A stretch of 64,000 nucleotides of DNA from an uncultured Candidatus Saccharibacteria bacterium (GTDB taxonomy: Bacteria > Patescibacteriota > Minisyncoccia > Phycocordibacterales > Phycocordibacteraceae), in the NCBI GenBank assembly GCA_964360975.1, contig CAYHYY010000001.1:959-64958 (forward strand), read 5' to 3'. Position 1 is the first letter of the stretch; each line of letters starts with the position of its first letter. Both the position numbers and the translations under genes were made by a program. The notes below the pieces were generated by a model. It worked only from the letters and a program-made list of their open reading frames with translations. It ran no database searches and was not told where the DNA came from. Below are positions 2,952 to 57,489 of this stretch, one piece after another.

Positions 2952-4162
2952 CCAATGAAAAGAAAAAAGTGCTCATATTCTCGCTCGCGTACTATCCAAA
3001 GCACGTTGGGGGTGCCGAGGTTTCAATAAAGGAGATCACCGACCGAATCAGTGACATCGAATTTCATCTCATCACCAACCGGTTTGATTCAACCTTGCCT
3101 AAGGAGGAGAAAATAGGAAACGTCTTTGTTCATAGGATCGGCATTGCGAGCGAGAATCCAACAATGGCTGATCTAAAGCGTTTTCCTCTCAACCTCAACA
3201 AACCGCTCTATCAGTTTCTTGCTGCCTGGCGTGCGCATCGACTGCACGCACGGTACCGTTTTGATGCCATGTGGGCGATGATGGCGCACTCGACTGGTGT
3301 TCCCGCAGTGATTTTCAAAATGCTCCACCCGCGCGTTAAATATATTCTCAATTTACAGGAAGGGGATCCAATACCGTACATAGAAAGAAAGATGCTTCCT
3401 TTGTGGTTTTTCTTCAGCCGCGCATTTACGAAGGCGGATATCATTCAACCGCTTTCTACATTTCTCGCAGAGTGGGCGAGGAGGCGTGGATTTACGGGGC
3501 CTATCGTCATCATCCCGAATGCCGTCAATGCGGAGCATTTTTCTGAAGAGTATCCAGCCTCGGTGATCAATGATATTCGTGATTCGCTCGGGAAAAAAAT
3601 GGGCGACGTATTTTTGATCACGACATCTCGCCTGGTTAAAAAGAATGCGGTCGATGATGTTATCCGCGCGCTCGCACTTCTTCCGAAAAACGTGCGCTTT
3701 ATTGTTCTCGGTGTTGGGCCAGACGAAGTACAACTCAAAGAGCTCGCAAAAAAACTTGGTGTGTCGCCACGTGTTGCATTCTTGGGACACGTTGGCCATG
3801 ACGAAATGCCAAAGTATCTAAAAGCATCTGATATTTTTATACGGCCGTCACGCTCTGAGGGGTTTGGGGCGTCGTTTGCCGAGGCTATGGCAGCCGGACT
3901 TCCCGTCGTGGCGACTCAAGAGGGTGGCATCGCAGATTTTCTTTTTGATGAGAAACTGAATCCTGACAAGCCGATAACTGGCTGGGCGGTCGAAAAAGAT
4001 TCACCGCAGCAGATAGCCGCTGCAATCAACAACATTATGGAAAATCCCGAGAAAGTCCGGGCTGTCGTGAAGACCGCGAAGGCGATGGTGGTAGGTAAAT
4101 ATGATTGGGATATCATCGCGAGAGACATGCGCACCAAAGTTTTTAATGCTCTCGGCATCTAA
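2948..4162 (+). CDS. Glycosyltransferase family 4 (GT-B, retaining)
   Basis: C-terminal RPSRSEGFGASFAEAMAAGLPVVAT (EX7E-type motif). Overlaps the upstream gene by 4 nt. Confidence 0.75.
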   Translation: MTNEKKKVLIFSLAYYPKHVGGAEVSIKEITDRISDIEFHLITNRFDSTLPKEEKIGNVFVHRIGIASENPTMADLKRFPLNLNKPLYQFLAAWRAHRLHARYRFDAMWAMMAHSTGVPAVIFKMLHPRVKYILNLQEGDPIPYIERKMLPLWFFFSRAFTKADIIQPLSTFLAEWARRRGFTGPIVIIPNAVNAEHFSEEYPASVINDIRDSLGKKMGDVFLITTSRLVKKNAVDDVIRALALLPKNVRFIVLGVGPDEVQLKELAKKLGVSPRVAFLGHVGHDEMPKYLKASDIFIRPSRSEGFGASFAEAMAAGLPVVATQEGGIADFLFDEKLNPDKPITGWAVEKDSPQQIAAAINNIMENPEKVRAVVKTAKAMVVGKYDWDIIARDMRTKVFNALGI

Positions 4163-27348: not shown

Positions 27349-28071
27349 ATGAACATCTATGCGGTGATCCTTGCCCGCGGTGGTTCAAAAGGGGTACCAC
27401 GGAAAAATGTCCTGCCGCTGAACGGAAAGCCGTTGATTGCGTGGACTATTGAGGCCGCAAAAAAAGTGCCGACGATTTCTAGGGTCGTGGTGAACACCGA
27501 TGATGATGAGATTGCTTCCGTCGCTGAATCGTACGGCGCGGAGATTTACATGCGCCCGAGTGAACTTGCAGGGGATGACACTCCCGATCTTCCGGTATTT
27601 GAGCAGTACCTAACGCGCCTCAAAGCGCAAGGCGAGTTGCCGGACATGATTGTCGATCTTCGTCCCACCGCGCCACTCCGCAGCGCGAAACGCATTGCTG
27701 AAGGGATTGAACTTTTATCCCGGATTGGCATTCTGAAAGCTGACTCGGTTCGAGCTGTTTCAAAAGCCGCGAAACATCCTTACAAGATGTGGAATCTCAA
27801 GGGTGAACACATCACCCCGTTTCTTTCGAAGTCCGTTACGGGGCTCAATGAGCCGTACAACGCTCCGCGACAAGTATTGCCACAGGTATATCAGAATAAT
27901 GGGTGCATGAATGCATTCTGGCCGGCAACAGTACTTGAGAAGCATTCGATGTCAGGCAACACTATCGCAGGTTTCGTTATGGATGATTGGGAGTCCGTTA
28001 ACATTGATACAAAGCTCGACTTCAAACTTGCCGAACTACTTATGAAAGAACACGAGAAGTTGTTTGCCTAA
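27349..28071 (+). CDS. CMP-nonulosonic-acid cytidylyltransferase (NeuA/PseF/LegF family)
   Basis: AVILARGGSKGVPRKNVLPLNGKPLI signature. Confidence 0.75.
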   Translation: MNIYAVILARGGSKGVPRKNVLPLNGKPLIAWTIEAAKKVPTISRVVVNTDDDEIASVAESYGAEIYMRPSELAGDDTPDLPVFEQYLTRLKAQGELPDMIVDLRPTAPLRSAKRIAEGIELLSRIGILKADSVRAVSKAAKHPYKMWNLKGEHITPFLSKSVTGLNEPYNAPRQVLPQVYQNNGCMNAFWPATVLEKHSMSGNTIAGFVMDDWESVNIDTKLDFKLAELLMKEHEKLFA

Positions 28072-28099
28072 TACGGTAGCGTGCGCGATACTGACCGCC

Positions 28100-29158
28100 A
28101 TGTCTGTTAAAGTAAAAATCATCGGAGCTGGCTCTATTGGAAATCATCTCGCGCAAGCGTCTCGGCGCATTGGGTGGGACGTTACCGTAGTGGATGCGAA
28201 CCGCGATGCGCTGAAGCGCATGAAGGACGATATCTATCCAACTAGATATGGAATGTGGGATTCACGCATTAAGCTCGCGCACATGAGTGAAGAACCGAAG
28301 GGTGGCTTCGACATCGTTATGATCGGGACGCCTCCCGACAGTCATCTCAAACTCGCGCTCGCCGCACTCCGCGAAAAACCGCGTGTGCTACAAATAGAGA
28401 AGCCGCTCTGCCCACCATGTGATCCGCTCCTCTCCCGATTCCTCGCAGCAGCAAAAAAGTCGCGAACGAAAATCATTGTTGGCTACGATCACACCGTAGG
28501 CGCGTCCATTGAATACGTCGCGTCGCATATACAGATGCTTGGGACTCCGCTTACCTTAGATGTCGAATTCCGTGAACACTGGCAAGGCATTTTCAAAGCG
28601 CACCCTTGGCTTTCTGGTCCATCAGATTCGTATTTGGGATACTGGAAGCGAGGCGGAGGAGCATCCGGGGAACACTCGCACGCACTCCATCTCTATCAAT
28701 ACCTAGCAAAAGAGATGGGGTTGGGGACCTGGAAGAAGGTCGTACCGCATCTGACGGTAGAGAAAGCAGCAGGAGGAGTGCAATACGATTCGGTGGCATC
28801 ATTCGGATTCGAGATGAGCAAGGGGCGATACGGACGTGTTATTCAAGATGTCATAACACTTCCAACGCGAAAGTGGGCGCGAGCGCAGGGATCCGATGGA
28901 TTCATCGAGTGGATCTGTGGTGGTTCGCCGAAAGGGGACATTGTCCGCCATGCGCTGAAGGGTAAAAAGCTAGAGGAGAAAGTGTTTGAGAAGACGCGCC
29001 CTGACGATTTCTTGAGAGAAGTAAAACACATTGATAAAATCCTGAAAGGCAAGCAAAGCGCCGCGACTTCCCCTATGTCTCTAGAGAGCGCGGTCGCGGT
29101 GATTCGTGTACTAGAGAAAACGTGGAAGAGTAAATCAAAGGTCGCGATTTCTTTGTAA
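28100..29158 (+). CDS. Gfo/Idh/MocA-family NAD(P) oxidoreductase
   Basis: VKIIGAGSIGNHLAQA Rossmann motif and family-typical length. The start was taken at ATG 28100. Confidence 0.6.
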   Translation: MSVKVKIIGAGSIGNHLAQASRRIGWDVTVVDANRDALKRMKDDIYPTRYGMWDSRIKLAHMSEEPKGGFDIVMIGTPPDSHLKLALAALREKPRVLQIEKPLCPPCDPLLSRFLAAAKKSRTKIIVGYDHTVGASIEYVASHIQMLGTPLTLDVEFREHWQGIFKAHPWLSGPSDSYLGYWKRGGGASGEHSHALHLYQYLAKEMGLGTWKKVVPHLTVEKAAGGVQYDSVASFGFEMSKGRYGRVIQDVITLPTRKWARAQGSDGFIEWICGGSPKGDIVRHALKGKKLEEKVFEKTRPDDFLREVKHIDKILKGKQSAATSPMSLESAVAVIRVLEKTWKSKSKVAISL

Positions 29159-29328
29159 AACAAGCCGCCCGTTCGACAGTCCCCCGGACTATCGAACACC
29201 CCGCCCCAAAGGGGACGGGGTATTGAGCGGGCGGCACCGGGGTGTTTTTCTAGGTAGAGAATCGGCCACCGCCGATACTGGTTTACCCTCAATCCCCGCG
29301 GCAAGCCGCGGGGATTGAAACCTAGTAA
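29159..29328. repeat. Copy A of a ~170 bp GC-rich multi-hairpin intergenic element that begins directly after a stop codon
   Basis: About 95% identical to 57303..57475. Hairpins: ttcgacagtcc/ggactatcgaa, caccccgcccc/ggggacggggtg, and ccccgcgg-caag-ccgcgggg. An enclosing stem gccgcccg/cgggcggc is followed by a T5 run. Confidence 0.7.
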
Positions 29329-29532
29329 ACTACCCCGCTACTACCATATATGGTAGTGATGCGGCCTCCGCCGAGATTCTCTTGACGGTACTCCGTCATA
29401 GAGAATCCAAGTGTGGTCGCCCTGCGCGAGCCACCGGGCGCGCGTGGCGACGATTCACCCCCGTGCCAGAGGCACGGGGCACTCTCGTCGTCCAGCCAGT
29501 AGAAATCTCAAGCCGGTGCGCTTGAGATTTGC
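29329..29532. other. Hairpin-dense non-coding stretch of at least five strong stem-loops between convergent genes. Possibly a structured RNA.
   Basis: Stem-loops ctacca-tata-tggtag, gattctct[tgacgg-tact-ccgtca]agagaatc, gtcgcc..ggcgac, ccccgtgcc-aga-ggcacgggg, and aaatctcaag-ccggtgcg-cttgagattt. No ORF. Confidence 0.35.
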
Positions 29533-31842: not shown

Positions 31843-31979
31843 AGCATAACTTTTTTGATTGCTTCGATCAGAAGGGTTTTGATGGATAGAAGTGTTGAGC
31901 GTATTTCAGTCGTTTATCGCGGGCTACCTTTGGTTTCGTGCGTATGAGAGGCTGACGTTCAAGATTTCAAATGGTATTA

Positions 31980-31995
31980 TTTTCATATATGAAAA
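31980..31995. promoter_or_regulatory. 16 bp perfect palindrome TTTTCATATATGAAAA centred on the start codon of the TrpR-like gene (candidate operator)
   Basis: Seen in the sequence. A near-identical 18 bp palindrome recurs at 32439..32456. Confidence 0.4.
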
Positions 31996-32426
31996 AAAAG
32001 AAAGGAGATTTAAGTAAGGAAGAATTTATCAAGACACTCGACATGCTCTATACAGCTGCTGGTACTGTTAAAGGTCGAAAGGATATGAAGTCGTTCCTGC
32101 GCGACCTTTTGACGGAGAGCGAGCGAATAATGCTCGGGCGACGTATTTGGATTGCGAGGCTCCTCCTTAATGGAATAAGTGTCATTGAAATTAGTCACCA
32201 GCTCAGAGTGAGTGTGGCAACTGTATACCGGGTGGAGCGCTGGCTCAAGGATCAGTTCACAGGTTACGAAGGCGCGGTCAGGGGTCTTGAGCGTGAGATG
32301 GAAAAGCGCGCGCGCATCCGCGAGGCAATCGCAGAACCTTTTTCATTTGTTGCATTAAAGCGTAGGTATCCACTCCATTTTCTGCTGTTCCCTGACCCTA
32401 AACCCAAGAAGCGGTACCACGATTAA
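31989..32426 (+). CDS. TrpR-like DNA-binding protein (YerC/YecD family)
   Basis: LTESERIMLGRRIWIARLLLNGISVIEISHQLRVSVATVYRV matches the Trp-repressor-like helix-turn-helix. The start was taken at ATG 31989 (MKKKKGDL). Confidence 0.6.
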   Translation: MKKKKGDLSKEEFIKTLDMLYTAAGTVKGRKDMKSFLRDLLTESERIMLGRRIWIARLLLNGISVIEISHQLRVSVATVYRVERWLKDQFTGYEGAVRGLEREMEKRARIREAIAEPFSFVALKRRYPLHFLLFPDPKPKKRYHD

Positions 32427-32438
32427 TATATTTTCGAG

Positions 32439-32456
32439 ATTTTCATATATGAAAAT
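32439..32456. promoter_or_regulatory. 18 bp perfect palindrome ATTTTCATATATGAAAAT, 13 nt after the stop of the TrpR-like gene (second candidate operator)
   Basis: Seen in the sequence. Pairs with the site at 31980..31995. Confidence 0.4.
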
Positions 32457-32589
32457 ATTTGCGAGTTGCTGTTCGTCATTGTTGAGAAGACCATACGTGA
32501 GTCGGCAGCGTCCCTATACATACTATACGCAGCAACATCAATGCACGTTTTCCTTACGTGCTTAAAGCACTGTATGCTGCTCTGTTATT

Positions 32590-34626: not shown

Positions 34627-36417
34627 ATGACTGCATCAAGCACTGTACCCCGTATGCGCGCAACCGAGCTCCTTTGGACGCTCTATGGTGAGCATAAAGG
34701 ATACGTCGTCATCCTTCTGGTTCTTGGCATACTTGGTGGATTTCTCGAGACGCTGGGGATTAGTATTCTCATTCCGCTTTTCTCGCACGTGTTAGACAAG
34801 CCTCTCATAGAAACAGGAAATTTCGCCGCGTTTTTCGTGCGGCTTTTTGATTTTTTCCACATTCAGCAACGCCTGAGCGTGCTCTTGCCACTTCTCGTCT
34901 CCATTTTTGTGTTTCGAGGTCTCGTCCTCTATAGCTTCAATTATGTTCGCGCACGGGTTATGGGCGATTACGAACGTGCGACACGGACGAGTGTCTATAA
35001 AAAATTGCTGCATGCTGACTGGCCATTTCTATCGGCACAACGCATCGGACATGCGGAGAATACGCTCATGGCCGATGTTGATAGGGCGACAAAGCTACTC
35101 GCCAATCTCACGAATTCCATTCTTCAGGTATCGAGTCTCGCGATCTACGTCACGGTGGCCATAGCTATTTCTCCAGAGGTGACCGCGGCAACCTTGATAA
35201 CCGGTGGAGCGCTGCTTTACTTCTTTCGGCCGCTCATTCGCAGGAATCGTGAGTATTCAGCTAAAACCGTCGATCTCAATAAACGGATCGCGCACGATGT
35301 CAATGAAAGCATCATCGGAATAAAATCAGTCAAAATCATGAACCGTGAAGACGCATTGAGCGATCGGATGGCGCGCCTCTTCAATTATCTCCGTGATCTG
35401 AAAATCAAACGCACATTAATTTCATCCGCGACGACAGAATTCATTCAGCCCGTGAGTGTCATTTTCGTTGTGCTCGTGTTTATCTACGCTTTTTATCGAC
35501 CCGGATTTGATCTGGCGACATTTGCGGTCGTCATGTTTCTCATTCAACGCATATTCATCTATGTTGATCGAGGGCAGACGCTCATGCATGAGATTAATCA
35601 GCAACTACCGCACGCAACGTATTTAGTGAATTTCCTCGGCTTACTTGAAGGTCGAACGACGGGAGTCAATGGCGAGAAGCCTTTCGCATTTGGCAAAGAA
35701 ATCGTCTTCGATCATGTTTCATTCGTGTATGAGTCGGAACGCACGGTGCTCAAGGACGTAACGTTTTCAATCAAGCACGGTGAAATGGTTGGCATCATTG
35801 GGCCTTCAGGCGTTGGGAAGACCACGGTCGTTGATCTCATCATGAGACTTCTTGACCCGTCGGATGGGAAAATTACGGTCGACGGCGTTCCGCTTGACCG
35901 TATAAGCACGAAGGAATGGCGCTCCCATATTGGTTACGTGCCACAAGACATCTTTCTCCTGAATGAGAGTATTTTTCAGAATATTCGATTTTTTGACCAC
36001 TCAGTTTCTCCCGATGATGTCCGTATCGCTATTCGCGATGCGAAACTCGACGAGGTGGTCGCGGCGCTTCCTCAGGGCATAGAGACTAACGTGGGAGAGC
36101 GGGGCGTCGCGCTTTCTGCGGGACAACGACAGCGCATTGTTCTCGCGAGAGCTCTTGCTCGGAAACCGGACATTCTCATTCTCGATGAGGCGACGAGTTC
36201 TCTGGATGCTGAATCTGAGAGTGTCATTCACGAGGCGCTTGAAGCAATACGCGGAAAAGTCACGGTCATCATAATCGCGCACCGACTTTCTACGATTATG
36301 AATGCAGATACGCTGGTAGCACTTGAGGGTGGACAGATCGTCGAGCACGGGACGCCAGATGCGCTACTAAAAAACCCGAAGTCATATTTCTATCGTTTGC
36401 GGTCTATGCAAACATGA
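34627..36417 (+). CDS. ABC exporter with a fused six-TM permease and ATPase (MsbA-like family)
   Basis: Six N-terminal TM helices. Walker A GPSGVGKTT, ABC signature LSAGQRQRIVLARAL, and Walker B ILILDEATSSLD. Confidence 0.85.
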   Translation: MTASSTVPRMRATELLWTLYGEHKGYVVILLVLGILGGFLETLGISILIPLFSHVLDKPLIETGNFAAFFVRLFDFFHIQQRLSVLLPLLVSIFVFRGLVLYSFNYVRARVMGDYERATRTSVYKKLLHADWPFLSAQRIGHAENTLMADVDRATKLLANLTNSILQVSSLAIYVTVAIAISPEVTAATLITGGALLYFFRPLIRRNREYSAKTVDLNKRIAHDVNESIIGIKSVKIMNREDALSDRMARLFNYLRDLKIKRTLISSATTEFIQPVSVIFVVLVFIYAFYRPGFDLATFAVVMFLIQRIFIYVDRGQTLMHEINQQLPHATYLVNFLGLLEGRTTGVNGEKPFAFGKEIVFDHVSFVYESERTVLKDVTFSIKHGEMVGIIGPSGVGKTTVVDLIMRLLDPSDGKITVDGVPLDRISTKEWRSHIGYVPQDIFLLNESIFQNIRFFDHSVSPDDVRIAIRDAKLDEVVAALPQGIETNVGERGVALSAGQRQRIVLARALARKPDILILDEATSSLDAESESVIHEALEAIRGKVTVIIIAHRLSTIMNADTLVALEGGQIVEHGTPDALLKNPKSYFYRLRSMQT

Positions 36418-37781
36418 AAGTTCTCTTCGTCATCCGTTCGGTGAACTTGTTTCACTACTATAAGAGCATTATCACTGCGCTCGCCAAGCGGGGACATGTG
36501 GTCGAGATGTTATTCGATGAAAAGTGGAGTACTGCTCATTCTATTGAACCGGTGAAAGAATTCATTGCACGATATCCTGCGTGCACCTACGGATGGTCTC
36601 TGCGAAGGCATGGTTGGCTTAAGCCATGTATCTTTCAAGTGCGCGAGCTTCGTAGTTACCGACGATTCCTCATTGTTCCGGGGCAGTCGACGTATTATCG
36701 CGACCGATGGCCAAACCACATGCCCTGGTTATGGCGACAGACGCTCAAACGCGTTCCGGGCGCGAAAGCAATATTGAAAACAAAGTTGTGCGGACGCTTC
36801 CTCGCATTCATAGAGGACAGCGTTCGACCTGATCCGAGAATAGTCGAGGACATTCGAAAGCATGCGCCAGACATTGCAGTGGTCACGCCGCTCAATCTGC
36901 GACTCTCCGAGGATATCGAATATTTAAAGGCTGCGCGCTCTCTAAAGATACCGACCGCGGGCGCTGTGCTTTCGTGGGACAATTTGACCACGAAGGGACT
37001 TATGAGCATTTTGCCAGATATACTCTTGGTCTGGAATGAAGCGCAAGTCGAAGAAGCGCGCGTGCATCACCAGATTCCTCCCGAGAAAACTCGAGTCGTT
37101 GGCGCTGCAGTTTTCGACCAATGGTTTGATTCAAACCTTTCTGCTTCAGCAGATAGAGAAGTTTTTTGCACGGCCCACGGACTGGATCCCAAGAAGCCGT
37201 ACGTTTTGTATCTCGGATCGTCTCGCAACATGGCGTACGACGAAACGTGGATTATTAAGAAACTGCGAACAGCGCTCGACGAGAGCGACGATCCTCTCCT
37301 TCGGTCGGTGCAGCTCGTGGTACGACCGCACGGGGCTAATTACGCAATCTATAAGGATATAGAAACACCCGGCATTGTGCTGGTCCCCCGTGAGGGAACG
37401 CTTCCGAATACGAGGGAGACGCTTCAGCTCTTTTACGATACCGCGTATCATTCTGTCGGCGTCATTATCGGTGCGAACACGAGCGCCATCATTGACTCAA
37501 TGACCGTGGGGAAGCCAGCGATAGTGTTTCAAACAGACCAGTACCGAAAGACGCAGATGGATACGCAGCACTTTCGGCAACTTCTTGAAATGGAAGTGCC
37601 GTACCTGGTGCCAGATACAGTTTCATTCTTAAAGCGCATGTTTTCACTTTTGAAAGGTGACGACCCGAAGCGAGAAAACAGGCATGCATTCATCAAACGG
37701 TATATTCGACCGCATGACGTGAGCGCCGGCGAAAAGGCGGCAGACATTCTTGAGGGACTTGCGAAAAAACGCGCGCGCTAG
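36414..37781 (+). CDS. TagF/TagB-like GT-B fold protein, paralog 3 of 5
   Basis: MKVLFVIRSVNLFHY, HAPDIAVVTP, SWDNLTTKG, VVGAAVFDQ, GANTSAIIDSMTVGKPAIVF. Confidence 0.45.
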   Translation: MKVLFVIRSVNLFHYYKSIITALAKRGHVVEMLFDEKWSTAHSIEPVKEFIARYPACTYGWSLRRHGWLKPCIFQVRELRSYRRFLIVPGQSTYYRDRWPNHMPWLWRQTLKRVPGAKAILKTKLCGRFLAFIEDSVRPDPRIVEDIRKHAPDIAVVTPLNLRLSEDIEYLKAARSLKIPTAGAVLSWDNLTTKGLMSILPDILLVWNEAQVEEARVHHQIPPEKTRVVGAAVFDQWFDSNLSASADREVFCTAHGLDPKKPYVLYLGSSRNMAYDETWIIKKLRTALDESDDPLLRSVQLVVRPHGANYAIYKDIETPGIVLVPREGTLPNTRETLQLFYDTAYHSVGVIIGANTSAIIDSMTVGKPAIVFQTDQYRKTQMDTQHFRQLLEMEVPYLVPDTVSFLKRMFSLLKGDDPKRENRHAFIKRYIRPHDVSAGEKAADILEGLAKKRAR

Positions 37782-37945
37782 AGCATGTCCGGAAACCTCC
37801 CCCTACCTGGAAACCGCTCATTTCCTACTCAACATTTCGTCTCGTCCTCAACGTACTCTCAGTACGCTTCGGACTCCGACTCATGTCTCATGACGGAAAT
37901 GAACGGTTTCGGTTCGGGTACCGCGGGTTTCCGGACATGCTCTAG
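37778..37945. repeat. 168 bp imperfect palindrome with 20 bp perfect terminal inverted repeats (CTAGAGCATGTCCGGAAACC ... GGTTTCCGGACATGCTCTAG). Could be a structured RNA or a MITE-like element.
   Basis: The terminal inverted repeats are 37778..37797 and 37926..37945. An inner pair ggaaaccgctcatttcc (37809..37825) / ggaaatgaacggtttc (37895..37910) has one mismatch. The element overlaps the stop of the upstream gene and lies just before the ATG of the next gene. Confidence 0.45.
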
Positions 37946-37978
37946 TTCAGTTGGCGCGCTTCTGCTACCATTTCTCAC

Positions 37979-39043
37979 ATGTCGTACTCAAAAGATCTTG
38001 CAGAACATATTCGAGCGGCTTCCGAGAGTCATGCATTCAGCAAATACAAGGAAGCGCGTAGCGCTATTCTTGCGCTCATTGATGAATCCAAATCCGACGC
38101 GGGAGCAAGCGATTACTGGAAACAGGAAATTGCAGGGTTCGAGTATCTTTTCGATGCATCCCCGTTGATTATCGAAACATTACGCCATCACTCGTATCAC
38201 CTCACGGGTCTCTATGAGTACCACTACCGCACGCACCATGCACGCATGAAGGGTCCGTATCGTGAGAAACTTGCGCTCCTCAAAACGCTCGATTCAAAAT
38301 CACTCCTCGTGCCAGAATCACCCGCGCTCGGCGGGTTTGGGTACGACATAGATGGCGCACTTTATAATCTCGACACGCTGAAATTTTATGAATTCCTTAT
38401 AGGCCTCGACAAGGCTGGATTCATAGAACCCGTACGGAATGCAGACCGTCCCGTTGTTGTTGAAATAGGCTCCGGGTGGGGAGGATTCGCGTACCAGTTT
38501 AAAACGCTTTTTCCGAAAACATCCTACGTCTTGGTCGACTTGCCGCACAGTCTTTTACTTGCCGCGACGTATATCCAGGCACTGTTTCCCGACGCGCATA
38601 TATATCTTGGCAATTCTATCCAATCATATGCACAGGTGGATTTTTCTCAATACGATTTCATTTTCGTTCCGAACACGGCGTGGGGAACACTACGCAAGCA
38701 ACGCATCGATCTCGCGATGAACATGATTTCATTTCAAGAAATGACTGATGAACAGGTGCGTTCGTATGTCTCGCGTCTGGCGGATTTTGAGTGTCCTCGA
38801 CTCTATAGCTTGAATCGCGATCGATCTCCCAACAACAGTGAAATCAGTGGGGTCATCGGCATTATGTCTGAGCAGTATCGCGTAGAGCATGTTTCCGTAC
38901 TTCCCGTTCCATATCACGTACTCAAAACTCCGAAACTATCGTTTATCGGTTCAGTAAAACATATAGTAAAGCAGGTTATCGGTAGGAAATCGAAACCAAT
39001 GTCTCGTGAGTATCAACACGCGAGCGGGGTGTTATCAGCATGA
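37979..39043 (+). CDS. SAM-methyltransferase-fold protein (putative sugar O-methyltransferase family), tandem paralog A
   Basis: VVEIGSGWGGFAYQF motif I and VLVDLPHSLLLAATY. Paralogous to the next gene (LLEIGSGAGNFAIF / VLIDLPQMLAYAAF). Confidence 0.5.
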   Translation: MSYSKDLAEHIRAASESHAFSKYKEARSAILALIDESKSDAGASDYWKQEIAGFEYLFDASPLIIETLRHHSYHLTGLYEYHYRTHHARMKGPYREKLALLKTLDSKSLLVPESPALGGFGYDIDGALYNLDTLKFYEFLIGLDKAGFIEPVRNADRPVVVEIGSGWGGFAYQFKTLFPKTSYVLVDLPHSLLLAATYIQALFPDAHIYLGNSIQSYAQVDFSQYDFIFVPNTAWGTLRKQRIDLAMNMISFQEMTDEQVRSYVSRLADFECPRLYSLNRDRSPNNSEISGVIGIMSEQYRVEHVSVLPVPYHVLKTPKLSFIGSVKHIVKQVIGRKSKPMSREYQHASGVLSA

Positions 39044-54833: not shown

Positions 54834-57302
54834 GTGCTAGGATGCCTTACCATGCTTGGCTTCGGGAAGCTGTTTACATCGGCAAGCCCTCTCTTAGGGA
54901 AAGCACAAGAGGCAGTCCTCGCCGTTAATACTTTTGAGGCTGCCATGAAGGCGCGGTCACTTGATGAAATTAAGGCCTTAACGAGCGACTTTAAGGATCG
55001 CGTAGCCAAAGGAGAGCATCTTGACGACCTACTCCCTGAGGCGTTCGCGGCTGTGCGCGAAGCATCGCTTCGAACCCTTGGGGAACGACATTATGACGTG
55101 CAAATAATCGGTGGGTATGTACTCCATAACCACGCCATTGCCGAGATGCGCACTGGTGAAGGTAAAACGTTGGTCGCAACGCTCCCTGCTTATTTGAATG
55201 CACTCACCGAAAGAGGTGTCCACATTATTACGGTGAACGATTATCTCGCGAGACGCGATGCGGTATGGATGGGACAGATTTATGCCGCGCTCGGACTGAG
55301 CGTCGGCGTTATCAATCATGACGCATCGTATGCGTACGATCCGTCGCATTCAGAAAAAGATGAAGCGCGAGACACGCTCGGATCGTTTAAAGTCATGCAC
55401 GAATTTCTTCGTCCCGTGTCCAGAAAAGAATCATACGCTGCTGACATTACGTACGGCACGAATAACGAATTTGGATTTGACTACTTGCGAGATAATCTTG
55501 AATACGACGCAGTTAATCTCAGGCAACGCGATCACTACTACGCTATTGTCGATGAAGTAGACTCGATACTTATTGACGAGGCGCGCACCCCATTAATTAT
55601 TTCGGGTCCTGCAAAGGATCCTGAAGCGTTGTATCAGACGTTTGCAGCTATCGCGAAATCGCTCAAAGAAACTGAGGACTATACCGTTGATGAAAAGATG
55701 CGCGCCGTCATTATTACCGACTCTGGGGTAGAGAAGGCGGAGAAAGCACTTGGCATAGAAAATTTGTACGCTGAAGGCGGTGCAAAGATGGCGCACCACT
55801 TAGAGTCCGCAGTAAAGGCGAAGGCGCTTTTTATGCTCGACAAAGACTACGTTGTAAAGGATGGCCAGGTAGTCATCGTTGATGAATTTACGGGACGTTT
55901 GCAGCCGGGGCGTCGGTGGTCCGAAGGTTTGCATCAAGCCATTGAAGCGAAGGAAGGGGTAACCATACAAAAAGAGAGTCAGACTTACGCGTCGGTGACG
56001 TTCCAAAATTACTTCCGTATGTACGAGAAGATTGCAGGCATGACGGGAACGGGGGAGACCTCAGAGGAGGAATTCAGGACTGTGTATGGCTTGGATGTAG
56101 TCGCCATTCCAACGCATCGACCGACGGCGAGAGACGACCAACATGATCTTATATTCCAAAATGAATCGGGAAAATTCAGAGCGATAGCGAAAGCGGTTGC
56201 TGAGCGTCACGCGAAAGGGCAGCCGGTCTTAATTGGCACGACGTCGATTGAAGCAAATGAGCGTCTCGCGGCCGTTTTACGCGTCGCAGGCATTCCGCAC
56301 GAGGTCATGAATGCGAAGAATCATGAGCGAGAAGGGGAAATTATTGCGCAAGCCGGACGAAAAGGAGCAGTGACGGTTGCGACGAACATGGCGGGGCGAG
56401 GTGTGGACGTAAAACTCGGCGGCAATCCTGCGACCAAAGAAGCGTACGAAGCGGTGAAGAATCTGGGGGGGTTGTTTGTGGTGGGTACTGAGCGTCACGA
56501 TGCTCGGAGGATCGATAATCAGCTTCGCGGTCGCGCGGGTCGTCAGGGTGACCCCGGCGTTACACAATTCTTCGTATCGCTCGAAGATCGATTGATGCGC
56601 GTTTTTGCATCGGATATGGTGAAGAAAATGATGGGAAAACTGGGTATCCCAGAAGATGAACCCATTCAGAGCGGCATGGTTTCTCGTTCTTTGGAGTCTG
56701 CGCAGGAAAAGATTGAAGGAGTGAATTTTGATTCTCGGAAGCACGTTTTAGGATTTGATGATGTGTTGAATCACCAGCGCGCGGTGATATATAAGAAGCG
56801 GCATGCGGTTCTCACTGGTGGACCAGATGAAGTCATTGCTATGGCGCGCGAACACATGGATGCTGCGGGAGCGGACGGCAGCGTTCTCGACGCCAAGGAG
56901 CAAGCATTAGGTCGAGATGCATTCGTGATTGCGCTCAGGCGTCTTCTTTTGCAGGCATATGATATGTTCTGGATTGAGCATCTCGAGACGATGGATCACT
57001 TGAGAGGGTCGGTAAATCTCCGGTCGTATGGCGGCAGAGATCCATTCATTGAATATCGTCGTGAAGGATTACGTCTCTTCAGAAACCTCGAAGAGTCACT
57101 CTCAGTCTTTGTCGCAGAGTCCGTTCCCCGTGTCGTCCCCGCATCGTCCAATCCGCAAAAAACGGTGCGCCTCGTCGCACCTGTTGCCCAAAAACTTGGT
57201 CGCAATGATCACGTGAAGATAACGAACGGCACCGAGACACGCGAAATGAAGTACAAGAAGGCGGAAGCTCTGCTATCCCAAGGTTGGAAAATCGTGGAGT
57301 AA
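54834..57302 (+). CDS. secA: Preprotein translocase ATPase SecA
   Basis: MRTGEGKTLVATLPAYLNAL (Walker A), ITVNDYLARRD, HQAIEAKEGV, TNMAGRGVDVKLGG. The track start at 54834 is GTG; an internal ATG at 54852 is an alternative. Confidence 0.9.
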   Translation: MLGCLTMLGFGKLFTSASPLLGKAQEAVLAVNTFEAAMKARSLDEIKALTSDFKDRVAKGEHLDDLLPEAFAAVREASLRTLGERHYDVQIIGGYVLHNHAIAEMRTGEGKTLVATLPAYLNALTERGVHIITVNDYLARRDAVWMGQIYAALGLSVGVINHDASYAYDPSHSEKDEARDTLGSFKVMHEFLRPVSRKESYAADITYGTNNEFGFDYLRDNLEYDAVNLRQRDHYYAIVDEVDSILIDEARTPLIISGPAKDPEALYQTFAAIAKSLKETEDYTVDEKMRAVIITDSGVEKAEKALGIENLYAEGGAKMAHHLESAVKAKALFMLDKDYVVKDGQVVIVDEFTGRLQPGRRWSEGLHQAIEAKEGVTIQKESQTYASVTFQNYFRMYEKIAGMTGTGETSEEEFRTVYGLDVVAIPTHRPTARDDQHDLIFQNESGKFRAIAKAVAERHAKGQPVLIGTTSIEANERLAAVLRVAGIPHEVMNAKNHEREGEIIAQAGRKGAVTVATNMAGRGVDVKLGGNPATKEAYEAVKNLGGLFVVGTERHDARRIDNQLRGRAGRQGDPGVTQFFVSLEDRLMRVFASDMVKKMMGKLGIPEDEPIQSGMVSRSLESAQEKIEGVNFDSRKHVLGFDDVLNHQRAVIYKKRHAVLTGGPDEVIAMAREHMDAAGADGSVLDAKEQALGRDAFVIALRRLLLQAYDMFWIEHLETMDHLRGSVNLRSYGGRDPFIEYRREGLRLFRNLEESLSVFVAESVPRVVPASSNPQKTVRLVAPVAQKLGRNDHVKITNGTETREMKYKKAEALLSQGWKIVE

Positions 57303-57475
57303 AACAAGCCGCCCGTTCGACAGTCCCCCGGACTATCGAACACCCCGCCCCAAAGGGGACGGGGTGTTGAGCGGGCGGCACCGGGGTGTTTTTCTAGGCA
57401 GAGAATCGGCCGCCGCCGATACTGGTTTACCCTCAATGCCCCGCGGCATAGCCGCGGGGCATTGAAACCTAGTAA
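57303..57475. repeat. Copy B of the ~170 bp multi-hairpin element, directly after the secA stop codon
   Basis: About 95% identical to 29159..29328. The terminal hairpin carries compensatory changes on both arms (gccccgcgg-cata-gccgcggggc versus ccccgcgg-caag-ccgcgggg). Confidence 0.7.
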
Positions 57476-57489
57476 TATACAATAGATAT

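What the first reader, a model, noticed from the sequence alone, without database searches (positions are those of the whole stretch)
37778..37945. 168 bp imperfect palindrome with 20 bp perfect terminal inverted repeats between a TagF-like gene and a methyltransferase gene
CTAGAGCATGTCCGGAAACC (37778..37797) is exactly reverse-complementary to GGTTTCCGGACATGCTCTAG (37926..37945). Inside, ggaaaccgctcatttcc (37809..37825) pairs with ggaaatgaacggtttc (37895..37910) with one mismatch, and a central cgtact-ctc-agtacg hairpin is present. The left repeat overlaps the upstream gene's stop codon (TAG at 37779..37781). The right repeat ends 33 nt before the ATG of the downstream gene. This layout fits a MITE-like insertion with terminal inverted repeats, a long attenuator or riboswitch-like leader for the methyltransferase operon, or an sRNA.
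Basis: seen in the sequence. Interest (0 to 1): 0.55.

Follow-up and report, generated by a model that had tools for sequence, protein, structure and literature searches.

The report
IS5-derived MITE in a Patescibacteria operon
The palindrome is a 162-bp non-autonomous transposable element (a MITE) that uses the ends of an IS5-family insertion sequence common in ultra-small groundwater bacteria; it landed on the stop codon between two sugar-pathway genes, which is an ordinary kind of event in an unusual host group.

Summary
The 20-nt arms are perfectly complementary, with none expected by chance, and the region folds far better than shuffled sequence.

It is a MITE. The element proper is 37781-37942 (162 bp). 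It has 17-bp perfect terminal inverted repeats (GAGCATGTCCGGAAACC) and is flanked by a duplicated TA inside a cTAg target.

The same termini bound full-length IS5-family insertion sequences of about 913 bp (270-275 aa transposase) in Saccharibacteria and Kaiserbacteria. They also bound at least 17 other MITE copies of about 160 bp at different loci in Patescibacteria genomes and metagenomes. One genome has three copies, and some pairs are 96-97% identical.

In three relatives the two flanking genes abut (28-bp gap, or 4-bp overlap). The window has 197 bp between them. The upstream ORF is intact because TA plus the element's first G rebuilds the TAG stop.

No riboswitch, attenuator, promoter or terminator was found.

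Across the family the hairpin is kept by compensatory substitutions. It also has a strand polarity: mismatches are purine-purine or G-T on one strand. This remains unexplained.

Verdict: a new member of a known kind, of modest interest.

The parts
37781..37942 (-). The MITE proper: 162 bp, GAGCATG...CATGCTC. It is non-coding and folds as a long imperfect hairpin. Its family polarity (the better-matching, better-folding orientation) is on the window's - strand.
   Evidence: A family profile scores 94.5 bits on - and 21.6 bits on +. The MFE of the 162-nt element is -92.6 kcal/mol on - and -75.8 on +.
37781..37797 (+). Left terminal inverted repeat, GAGCATGTCCGGAAACC (17 nt). It is identical to the left end of the IS5-family IS in L004.
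37926..37942 (-). Right terminal inverted repeat, the perfect reverse complement of the left one.
37779..37780 (.). Left copy of the TA target-site duplication. With the element's first base G (37781) it forms the TAG stop of the upstream gene.
   Evidence: TA on both sides in 14 of 18 MITE copies and in all 3 full-length IS.
37943..37944 (.). Right copy of the TA duplication. Together with g37945 it is the original TAG of the cTAg target.
37810..37825 (+). Left middle arm of the hairpin. It pairs with 37895-37910. The sequence of this arm is subfamily-specific, but pairing is kept by compensatory change across the family.
37895..37910 (+). Right middle arm of the hairpin.
37852..37866 (+). 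Central hairpin CGTACT-CTC-AGTACG. The GTA...TAC core is invariant or nearly so in all 13 aligned copies.
36414..37781 (+). Upstream gene (455 aa, no Pfam domain, Patescibacteria-wide family). The ORF is intact and is colinear end to end with its closest relative.
37979..39043 (+). Downstream gene (354 aa, weak SAM-methyltransferase signature). In relatives it directly abuts or overlaps the upstream gene.

Best explanation
The palindrome is a miniature inverted-repeat transposable element. It is a type II MITE, meaning it shares only its termini with its autonomous partner. It belongs to a family mobilised in trans by an IS5-family DDE transposase (IS1031/IS427-like: about 913 bp, one ORF of 270-275 aa) that is widespread in Patescibacteria (CPR bacteria).

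Shown:
- The transposase-bearing IS and the MITEs share the terminal about 17-19 bp (GAGCATGTYCRGAAACCC).
- Both are flanked by a duplicated TA, preferentially within YTAG/CTAG.
- The window copy sits in a cTAg whose TAG was the stop codon of the upstream gene.
- Because the element begins with G, TA+G rebuilds the stop, so the upstream protein is unchanged.
- The original TAG now lies on the right side, 33 nt before the downstream ATG.

Inferred:
- The element was mobilised in trans by an IS copy elsewhere in the genome or population.
- At this locus it is co-transcribed within the polysaccharide-modification operon as a hairpin of about -76 kcal/mol. That hairpin could act as an RNase III substrate or a barrier that uncouples the two cistrons, as described for Correia and ERIC elements.
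- The family's hairpin is under selection on one strand. The reason is unknown.
For: Parent IS:
- L004 133-1053 reads CTAGAGCATGTCCGGAAACCC...GGGTTTCTGAACATGCTCTAG around a 272-aa ORF.
- That ORF matches NCBIfam NF033580, IS5 family transposase (233.9 bits, cut-off 110), and Pfam DUF4096 + DDE_Tnp_1.
- Further full-length copies have the same termini and TA/TA flanks, in Kaiserbacteria (L103-L106) and in L107/L108.

Dispersed copies:
- Paired termini at nearly the same spacing occur in Parcubacteria, Liptonbacteria, Paceibacterota and Saccharibacteria genomes.
- Eleven more copies came from metagenomes, including the same aquifer.
- There are three copies in one genome (MHXH01: L018, L082, L024).
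- L018/L082 are 96% identical and L051/L100 97% identical, each pair with different flanks.
- Degenerate, terminus-less copies also exist.

Target duplication: TA on both sides in 14 of 18 copies, with a YTAG target.

Membership of the window copy: the profile built from the family scores it at 94.5 bits, E 3e-27. It shares the central block and the length with L094 and L097.

Insertion polymorphism at gene level:
- The orthologous gene pair has a 28-bp gap in the P0002 contig (62% identity).
- The pair overlaps by 4 bp in L101 and L102.
- The window gap is 197 bp, which is 33 + 162 + 2.
- The upstream protein is colinear, 455 aa against 455 aa.

Not an artefact: the same sequence appears in three independent assemblies.
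Against: - No second copy and no transposase are present in the 64-kb window. The rest of this genome could not be searched, so multicopy status is shown for related genomes only.
- No relative close enough to show an exact empty site (cgcgcgCTAGttcag) was found. The nearest relative with DNA available is about 50% identical at protein level.
- The interior of the window copy is only about 60-71% identical to other copies, so no near-identical sibling documents recent movement of this particular subfamily.
- Transcription, processing and any regulatory effect are untested.
Confidence: 0.9

Rival explanations
1. The hairpin is, or has become, a functional structured RNA expressed from the strand antisense to the operon, or from its own transcript. 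It could be an sRNA or a processing signal. The MITE would be only the vehicle.
For: - The hairpin is maintained by compensatory change: 34 of 56 pairs have double substitutions, 91% of cells are paired, 0 of 500 shuffles reach this, and slid controls score <=0.157 against 0.436.
- There is a strand polarity. The - strand orientation folds better in 13 of 13 copies.
- By a strand-symmetric method, mismatches are purine-purine 125 against pyrimidine-pyrimidine 8, and G-T 39 against A-C 10.
- Lineage-specific events are purine-purine 12 against pyrimidine-pyrimidine 2.
Against: - No sigma-70-like promoter or intrinsic terminator lies in or near the element.
- There is no Rfam family; the only hit is 22.9 bits against a 140-bit threshold.
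- Copies are not preferentially oriented so that host mRNAs carry the better-folding strand: roughly 7 against 3 the other way, by crude ORF calls.
- The same pattern could come from a single-stranded DNA step, from asymmetric transposase contacts, or from mutational skew.
- The copies are related, so the counts are not fully independent.
Confidence: 0.15
2. The element is a gene-specific cis-regulatory leader (attenuator or riboswitch) controlling the downstream methyltransferase-like gene.
For: It lies immediately upstream of the gene (33 nt from the ATG) and is very stably folded.
Against: - Homologous elements lie next to unrelated genes in many genomes.
- Orthologous gene pairs in relatives abut or overlap with no leader at all.
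- There is no Rfam match.
- No terminator or anti-terminator arrangement and no T-run follows the hairpin on the + strand.
Confidence: 0.02
3. It is a REP/BIME-, ERIC- or PATE-like palindromic repeat moved by a different enzyme (for example a RAYT or IS200/IS605 transposase), and the similarity to the IS5 ends is coincidental.
For: It is a long palindromic intergenic repeat, as those elements are.
Against: - The left end of L004 matches 17 of 17 nt. The shared consensus runs to about 19 nt and is seen in several IS copies.
- The IS and the MITEs have the same TA duplication and YTAG target.
- IS200/IS605-type elements have no TIRs and make no target duplication (general knowledge of that family).
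Confidence: 0.02
4. It is an assembly artefact (a palindromic chimera).
For: Two low-coverage contigs break inside the element, at window positions 37830 and 37882.
Against: An independent 27-kb contig from another sample spans it with identical sequence (L088). The partial contigs agree base for base. Homologous elements exist in many unrelated assemblies.
Confidence: 0.01

Closest known systems
Prokaryotic type II MITEs derived from IS elements (class as defined in PMC10969869, sections 2.1-2.2)
   Same: It is <500 bp with TIRs within the 4-30 bp range and flanking direct repeats. It has no coding capacity, is multicopy in related genomes, is located intergenically or in 3' UTRs, and is predicted to give a stable stem-loop transcript. 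It shares only the TIRs with an autonomous IS.
   Different: It is GC-neutral (about 50%) rather than AT-rich. The host group (Patescibacteria/CPR) is not in that review's list of taxa, and no paper in the searched library describes MITEs there.
IS5 family, IS1031/IS427-type insertion sequences (the autonomous partner)
   Same: The partner IS is about 913 bp with a single ORF of 270-275 aa (DUF4096 + DDE_Tnp_1; NCBIfam transpos_IS5_3). Its TIRs of about 17-20 bp begin with GAG, and it makes a very short target duplication. These features match those tabulated or described for these groups in PMC3196728 and PMC2516522.
   Different: The window element has no transposase. The duplication here is best read as 2 bp (TA in YTAG) rather than the 3 nt noted for the IS1031 group. 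Subgroup assignment was not tested phylogenetically.
Correia elements (Neisseria) and ERIC elements (Enterobacteria)
   Same: They are of similar size (about 100-200 bp) and are near-full-length imperfect palindromes. They are often co-transcribed with neighbouring genes, where the hairpin is cut by RNase III (Correia) or alters mRNA decay (ERIC) (PMC10969869, section 4.1). From my own knowledge, not tested here, Correia elements also duplicate a TA.
   Different: There is no sequence similarity. No IHF site or outward promoter was identified here. No autonomous partner is known for Correia, whereas this family has a clear IS5-family partner. RNase processing is untested here.
Tourist-like MITEs of PIF/Harbinger transposons (eukaryotes)
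   Same: They are the non-autonomous derivatives of the eukaryotic relatives of IS5-family transposases. They have short T/A-containing target duplications and hairpin-forming bodies (my own knowledge).
   Different: They occur in a different domain of life and use a 3-bp TAA/TTA duplication. There is no sequence relationship.

Membership tests
MITE (PMC10969869 definition) | Length typically <500 bp and no transposase | tested here: met
   The element is 162 bp. tblastn of the parent transposase against the window finds nothing. The only ORF starting inside the element (37785-38168) overlaps the real downstream gene out of frame.
MITE (PMC10969869 definition) | Terminal inverted repeats (about 4-30 bp) | tested here: met
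   The TIRs are 17-bp perfect repeats, 20 bp if the TA and the flanking C/G are included.
MITE (PMC10969869 definition) | Flanking direct repeats from target duplication | tested here: met
   The window copy has TA on both sides, as do 14 of 18 family copies and 3 of 3 full IS. Whether the duplication is 2 bp or longer cannot be settled at palindromic CTAG sites.
MITE (PMC10969869 definition) | Multicopy, dispersed at different loci | tested here: inconclusive
   This is met for the family: three copies in genome MHXH01, two loci in JACPLI01, and 18 distinct copies overall. The window's own genome is not testable. There is only one copy in the 64 kb, and the genome is not among the species representatives searched.
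MITE (PMC10969869 definition) | Termini shared with an autonomous IS able to act in trans | tested here: met
   The IS copies in L004, L103-L106 and L107/L108 carry the same termini and an IS5-family transposase. Actual trans-mobilisation was not tested.
MITE (PMC10969869 definition) | Presence/absence polymorphism (empty site) | tested here: inconclusive
   The orthologous genes abut in three relatives, with gaps of 28, -4 and -4 bp against 197 bp here. These relatives are only 50-62% identical, so an exact empty site was not seen.
IS5 family (autonomous partner) | DDE transposase of the IS5 type | tested here: met
   NF033580 scores 233.9 bits against a cut-off of 110. PF13340 scores 106.8 bits and PF01609 81.5 bits.
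IS5 family (autonomous partner) | Subgroup (IS1031 or IS427): size 850-1000 bp, single or frameshifted ORF, 2-4 bp duplication | tested here: inconclusive
   The size (912-913 bp), the single ORF and the TA duplication fit both subgroups (PMC3196728, PMC2516522). No phylogeny against ISfinder references was possible.
Riboswitch / attenuator leader | Conserved association with the regulated gene across relatives; match to a known RNA family or a terminator/antiterminator design | tested here: not met
   It is absent from the orthologous junctions. It has no Rfam match and no terminator.
Correia/ERIC-like RNA-level action | Co-transcription with flanking genes and RNase III/E processing of the hairpin | not testable with these tools
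   Only the predicted hairpin is available: -75.8 kcal/mol for the element on the mRNA strand.

The most novel reading that the evidence does not exclude
The family is more than selfish DNA. Its full-length hairpin is kept by compensatory substitutions, and it has a consistent polarity (purine-purine and G-U mismatches on one strand only). This would mean that a single-stranded form of that strand is under selection. That form could be an element-encoded or read-through hairpin RNA with a role in CPR gene expression or in control of the transposon. Alternatively it could be a single-stranded DNA intermediate in the transposition of an IS5-type element, which would be mechanistically unexpected for a DDE transposase.
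Probability: 0.2. Interest if true: 0.6.

Novelty: new member of a known kind. Interest (0 to 1): 0.33.

Why it matters
It explains the odd 197-bp spacer in an otherwise tightly packed cell-surface polysaccharide operon. It also removes the riboswitch/attenuator reading.

More broadly, it documents an active-looking IS5/MITE pair spread across several Patescibacteria classes (Saccharibacteria, Paceibacteria lineages). These organisms have about 1-Mb genomes and are usually thought of as poor in mobile DNA. I found no description of MITEs in them in the searched literature.

The element breaks short-read assemblies (two contigs end inside it), which is practically relevant for CPR MAG quality.

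The target choice, TA in CTAG with the element supplying a G, lets it sit on TAG stop codons without harming the gene. This is a neat example of a tolerated insertion niche.

The strand-polar, compensated hairpin would be a testable lead for anyone with metatranscriptomes from these aquifers.

Tried and rejected
- Rfam at gathering threshold on the whole window found nothing. A permissive scan of the region found only a plant miRNA-precursor model at 22.9 bits against 140, which I treat as noise.
- There are no tRNA or tmRNA genes in the window, so the element is not a tRNA-linked integration site.
- The promoter/terminator scan of 37500-38200 found nothing relevant.
- Most of the 86 hits from the 17-mer genome scan were single chance matches in unrelated phyla and were discarded. 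Only loci with paired termini or a transposase were used.
- blastn of the window element against the hit loci matched only the termini. This first suggested unrelated interiors. Oriented alignment and a profile later showed real but diverged homology.
- I looked for the exact empty site. Contigs holding the identical flanking proteins are the same population and carry the element. DNA of the closest relative's contig (P0002) was not retrievable.
- A G-U against A-C count on the RNAalifold structure was set aside as biased, because the structure was predicted on that strand. It was replaced by a strand-symmetric self-alignment.
- Assigning the MITE ends to the left and right ends of the parent IS by eye was inconclusive. 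The only support is a weak profile hit, in the transposase-sense orientation, covering the last 126 bp of the L004 IS (E 1.5e-4).
- My first structure string for alignment A1 had the wrong length, and that count was not repeated.
- Literature searches for MITEs in CPR/Patescibacteria returned only irrelevant papers.

Full report
**1. The observation**

- The sequence is as described. 37778-37797 (CTAGAGCATGTCCGGAAACC) is the exact reverse complement of 37926-37945.
- With up to three mismatches allowed, the 20-mer occurs nowhere else in the 64-kb window, and shuffles give 0 expected matches.
- The inner arms (37810-37825 / 37895-37910, one mismatch) and the central CGTACT-CTC-AGTACG hairpin (37852-37866) are also present.
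- As RNA the region folds at -85.8 kcal/mol on the + strand (z = -8.3) and -100.2 kcal/mol on the - strand (z = -11.0).
- TAG 37779-37781 ends ORF 36414-37781, and the next ORF starts at 37979.

**2. What it is**

*Other copies.* A scan of one genome per prokaryotic species for the core of the repeat (GAGCATGTCCGGAAACC) gave mostly single chance hits. In Patescibacteria (CPR) genomes, however, the motif occurs as inverted pairs at almost the same spacing as here. These genomes include:
- Parcubacteria RIFCSPLOWO2_01_FULL_48_18, with three loci;
- a Liptonbacteria genome;
- a Paceibacterota genome;
- several Saccharibacteria genomes.

A paired-termini scan of metagenomes added eleven more copies, two from the same aquifer system. 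Most copies are 160-163 bp. Shorter (58, 74 bp) and longer (199, 208 bp) variants exist.

*Boundaries.* Reading the flanks of all copies shows that the element proper is GAGCATG...CATGCTC. It is flanked by TA on both sides in 14 of 18 distinct copies. The base before the left TA is usually C/T and the base after the right TA is usually G, so the target is YTAG, often CTAG. In the window the element is therefore 37781-37942 (162 bp). TA lies at 37779-80 and 37943-44 inside c-TA...TA-g.

*Autonomous partner.*
- In Saccharibacteria locus L004 the same termini, with the same CTAG flanks, enclose a 912-bp element with one 272-aa ORF.
- This ORF is an IS5-family transposase: NCBIfam NF033580 at 233.9 bits against a cut-off of 110, plus Pfam DUF4096 and DDE_Tnp_1.
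- Its relatives are very numerous in metagenomes. Many sit on stand-alone contigs of about 900-1200 bp, as expected for multicopy IS.
- Full-length copies were checked in Candidatus Kaiserbacteria (L103-L106) and in another genome (L107/L108). They are 913 bp, with termini GAGCATGTCTGAAAACCC / GGGTTTTTGAACATGCTC and TA/TA flanks.
- Size, single ORF, TIR length and the very short duplication fit the IS1031/IS427 part of the IS5 family as described in PMC3196728 and PMC2516522. I could not assign the subgroup.

*Evidence of mobility in the family.*
- L018 and L082 are 96% identical copies at different loci, in opposite orientations, in one genome.
- L051 and L100 are 97% identical with different flanks.
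- A profile search also finds degenerate copies lacking termini (L091 989-1112; L093 3180-3326).

*Membership of the window copy.*
- Its interior is only 57-71% identical to the others.
- It aligns over its whole length to L094 and L097. It shares the termini, the CCCT(A/G)CCT block, the central GTCTC..CCTCAA.GTA-loop-TAC...TCCGAC block and the length.
- The family profile scores it at 94.5 bits, E = 3e-27.
- Because only the termini match the IS, it is a type II MITE in the sense of PMC10969869.

**3. The insertion at this locus**

- The window comes from Hainich groundwater, well H52, 0.1 and 0.2 um filter fractions.
- The flanking protein's named homologues are all Patescibacteria.
- Independent assemblies of the same population carry the identical element. 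Two low-coverage contigs end inside it, as assemblers do at repeats and palindromes.
- In relatives the two flanking genes are neighbours without any spacer:
  - a 28-bp gap in the closest relative (62% identity; gene coordinates only);
  - a 4-bp ATGA overlap in L101 and L102. Their downstream genes are confirmed orthologues at 51% and 62% identity.
- The window spacer is 197 bp, which is 33 bp plus the 162-bp element plus one TA.
- The upstream protein aligns end to end with its closest relative, 455 aa against 455 aa with no gaps.

The simplest history is insertion into the cTAg that contained the upstream gene's TAG stop. The stop is rebuilt from the left TA and the element's first G. The same arrangement, with a stop codon abutting the element's end, is seen at L095 and L051. 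An exact empty site in a near-identical strain was not found.

**4. How it probably works**

*Shown.* The TIRs are identical to those of an IS5-family IS. The element has a TA duplication and a YTAG target, dispersed copies exist, and it has no coding capacity.

*Inferred: mobilisation.* It was mobilised in trans by that transposase. No transposase lies in the window, so the source would be elsewhere in the genome or the community.

*Inferred: effect on the operon.*
- The element carries no sigma-70-like promoter and no intrinsic terminator and matches no RNA family.
- It is therefore most likely transcribed passively within the operon as a hairpin of about -76 kcal/mol.
- By analogy with Correia and ERIC elements (PMC10969869, section 4.1), this could be cut by RNase III or alter mRNA decay, uncoupling the two cistrons. 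This is untested.

**5. An unexplained feature**

*Compensatory maintenance.* The hairpin is not just a decaying palindrome.
- Across 13 distinct copies, 34 of 56 consensus pairs keep pairing through substitutions on both sides, with up to five different standard pair types at one position.
- 91% of cells are paired, against 76.7% in shuffles.
- The covariation score is 0.436, against 0.181 in shuffles and at most 0.157 when partners are slid. None of 500 shuffles reaches the observed values.
- The copies also share non-palindromic features and a fixed length. Common descent with compensatory change is therefore more parsimonious than repeated fold-back births.

*Strand polarity.*
- In all 13 copies, the strand corresponding to the window's - strand folds better, by 4-21 kcal/mol.
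- The profile scores one orientation far higher, for example 94.5 against 21.6 bits for the window copy.
- I used a strand-symmetric definition of pairs, aligning each copy to its own reverse complement. Non-Watson-Crick positions on that strand are purine-purine 125 times and pyrimidine-pyrimidine 8 times. G-T occurs 39 times and A-C 10 times, or 29 against 9 after collapsing close relatives (p = 0.002).
- Events private to one lineage are purine-purine 12 against pyrimidine-pyrimidine 2.

*Interpretation.* This suggests a constraint on a single-stranded form of that strand, either RNA or DNA. However, the copies are not preferentially oriented so that host mRNAs carry that strand. By crude ORF calls the split is roughly 7 against 3 the other way, and the window copy presents the weaker strand in the operon mRNA. 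I leave this open.

**6. Comparison, novelty and score**

- The element meets the defining features of a prokaryotic MITE: size, TIRs, direct repeats and an IS partner.
- Multicopy status is shown only in related genomes, and the empty site only at gene-order level in relatives.
- It works like other IS-derived MITEs and resembles Correia and ERIC elements in architecture. It shares no sequence with them.
- The searched literature has nothing on MITEs in CPR/Patescibacteria, and the 2024 review's taxon list does not include them.
- It is therefore a new family of a well-known kind.
- Interest is modest at 0.33. It is raised slightly by the host group and by the compensated, strand-polar hairpin.

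Noticed in passing
window 29156-29335 and 57300-57478: A second, unrelated repeat family of about 175-180 nt, with two copies 28 kb apart. The first 143 nt are 97% identical, and an alignment that includes 16-20 nt of unrelated flank on each side has 92% mean column identity.
- Each copy begins exactly at the TAA stop of a + strand gene: an oxidoreductase (28064-29158) and secA (54834-57302). Each ends in ...GAAACCTAG|TAA, so each is bracketed by TAA.
- There are no terminal inverted repeats.
- It is very strongly structured (-105.8 kcal/mol, z -9.7).
- The last hairpin differs between the copies by a compensatory G/C insertion.
- An internal GTGTTTTTCT run follows the first GC-rich hairpins.
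- It may be a different non-autonomous element or a 3'-UTR RNA.

   Followed up: partly
window 29278-29321 (and the matching part of the 57-kb copy): The tail of that second repeat, GTTTACCCTCAATCCCCGCGGCAAGCCGCGGGGATTGAAAC, resembles a CRISPR direct repeat: Rfam RF01331 CRISPR-DR18 at 27.5 bits against a gathering score of 50, E 0.008, ending in ATTGAAAC. The window has no CRISPR array, and the eight neighbouring ORFs scanned include no cas genes (identified neighbours: secA, obg, murB-like, an epimerase, a holin-like protein and an oxidoreductase). It is a solitary repeat-like hairpin of unknown meaning.
   Followed up: partly
window 31978-32010 and 32425-32457: The palindromic motif TTTTCATATATGAAAA occurs twice, about 450 bp apart, in the AT-rich region just upstream of the start of the polysaccharide gene cluster (first ORF from 32590). 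It is possibly a pair of operator sites.
   Followed up: no
window 1-64000: There are no tRNA genes in 64 kb. Nearly all large ORFs lie on the + strand and are tightly packed or overlapping. Much of the sampled part of 28-43 kb encodes sugar-modification and export functions: NAD-dependent sugar epimerases/dehydratases, methyltransferases, a family-2 glycosyltransferase, an ABC exporter and a Glyphos_transf protein.
   Followed up: no
L004 180-240; L103 1455-1503; L107 1465-1503: In the full-length IS copies, the stretch just before the transposase ATG contains a conserved inverted repeat (e.g. CATATGGATATA...TATATCCATATG) whose second arm includes the start codon. This may be a translational control hairpin for the transposase.
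   Followed up: no
L093 3180-3326 next to 3351-3512; L091 989-1112: Degenerate MITE copies lacking termini. One lies immediately beside a full copy, which suggests clustering or nested insertion and decay of old copies.
   Followed up: no
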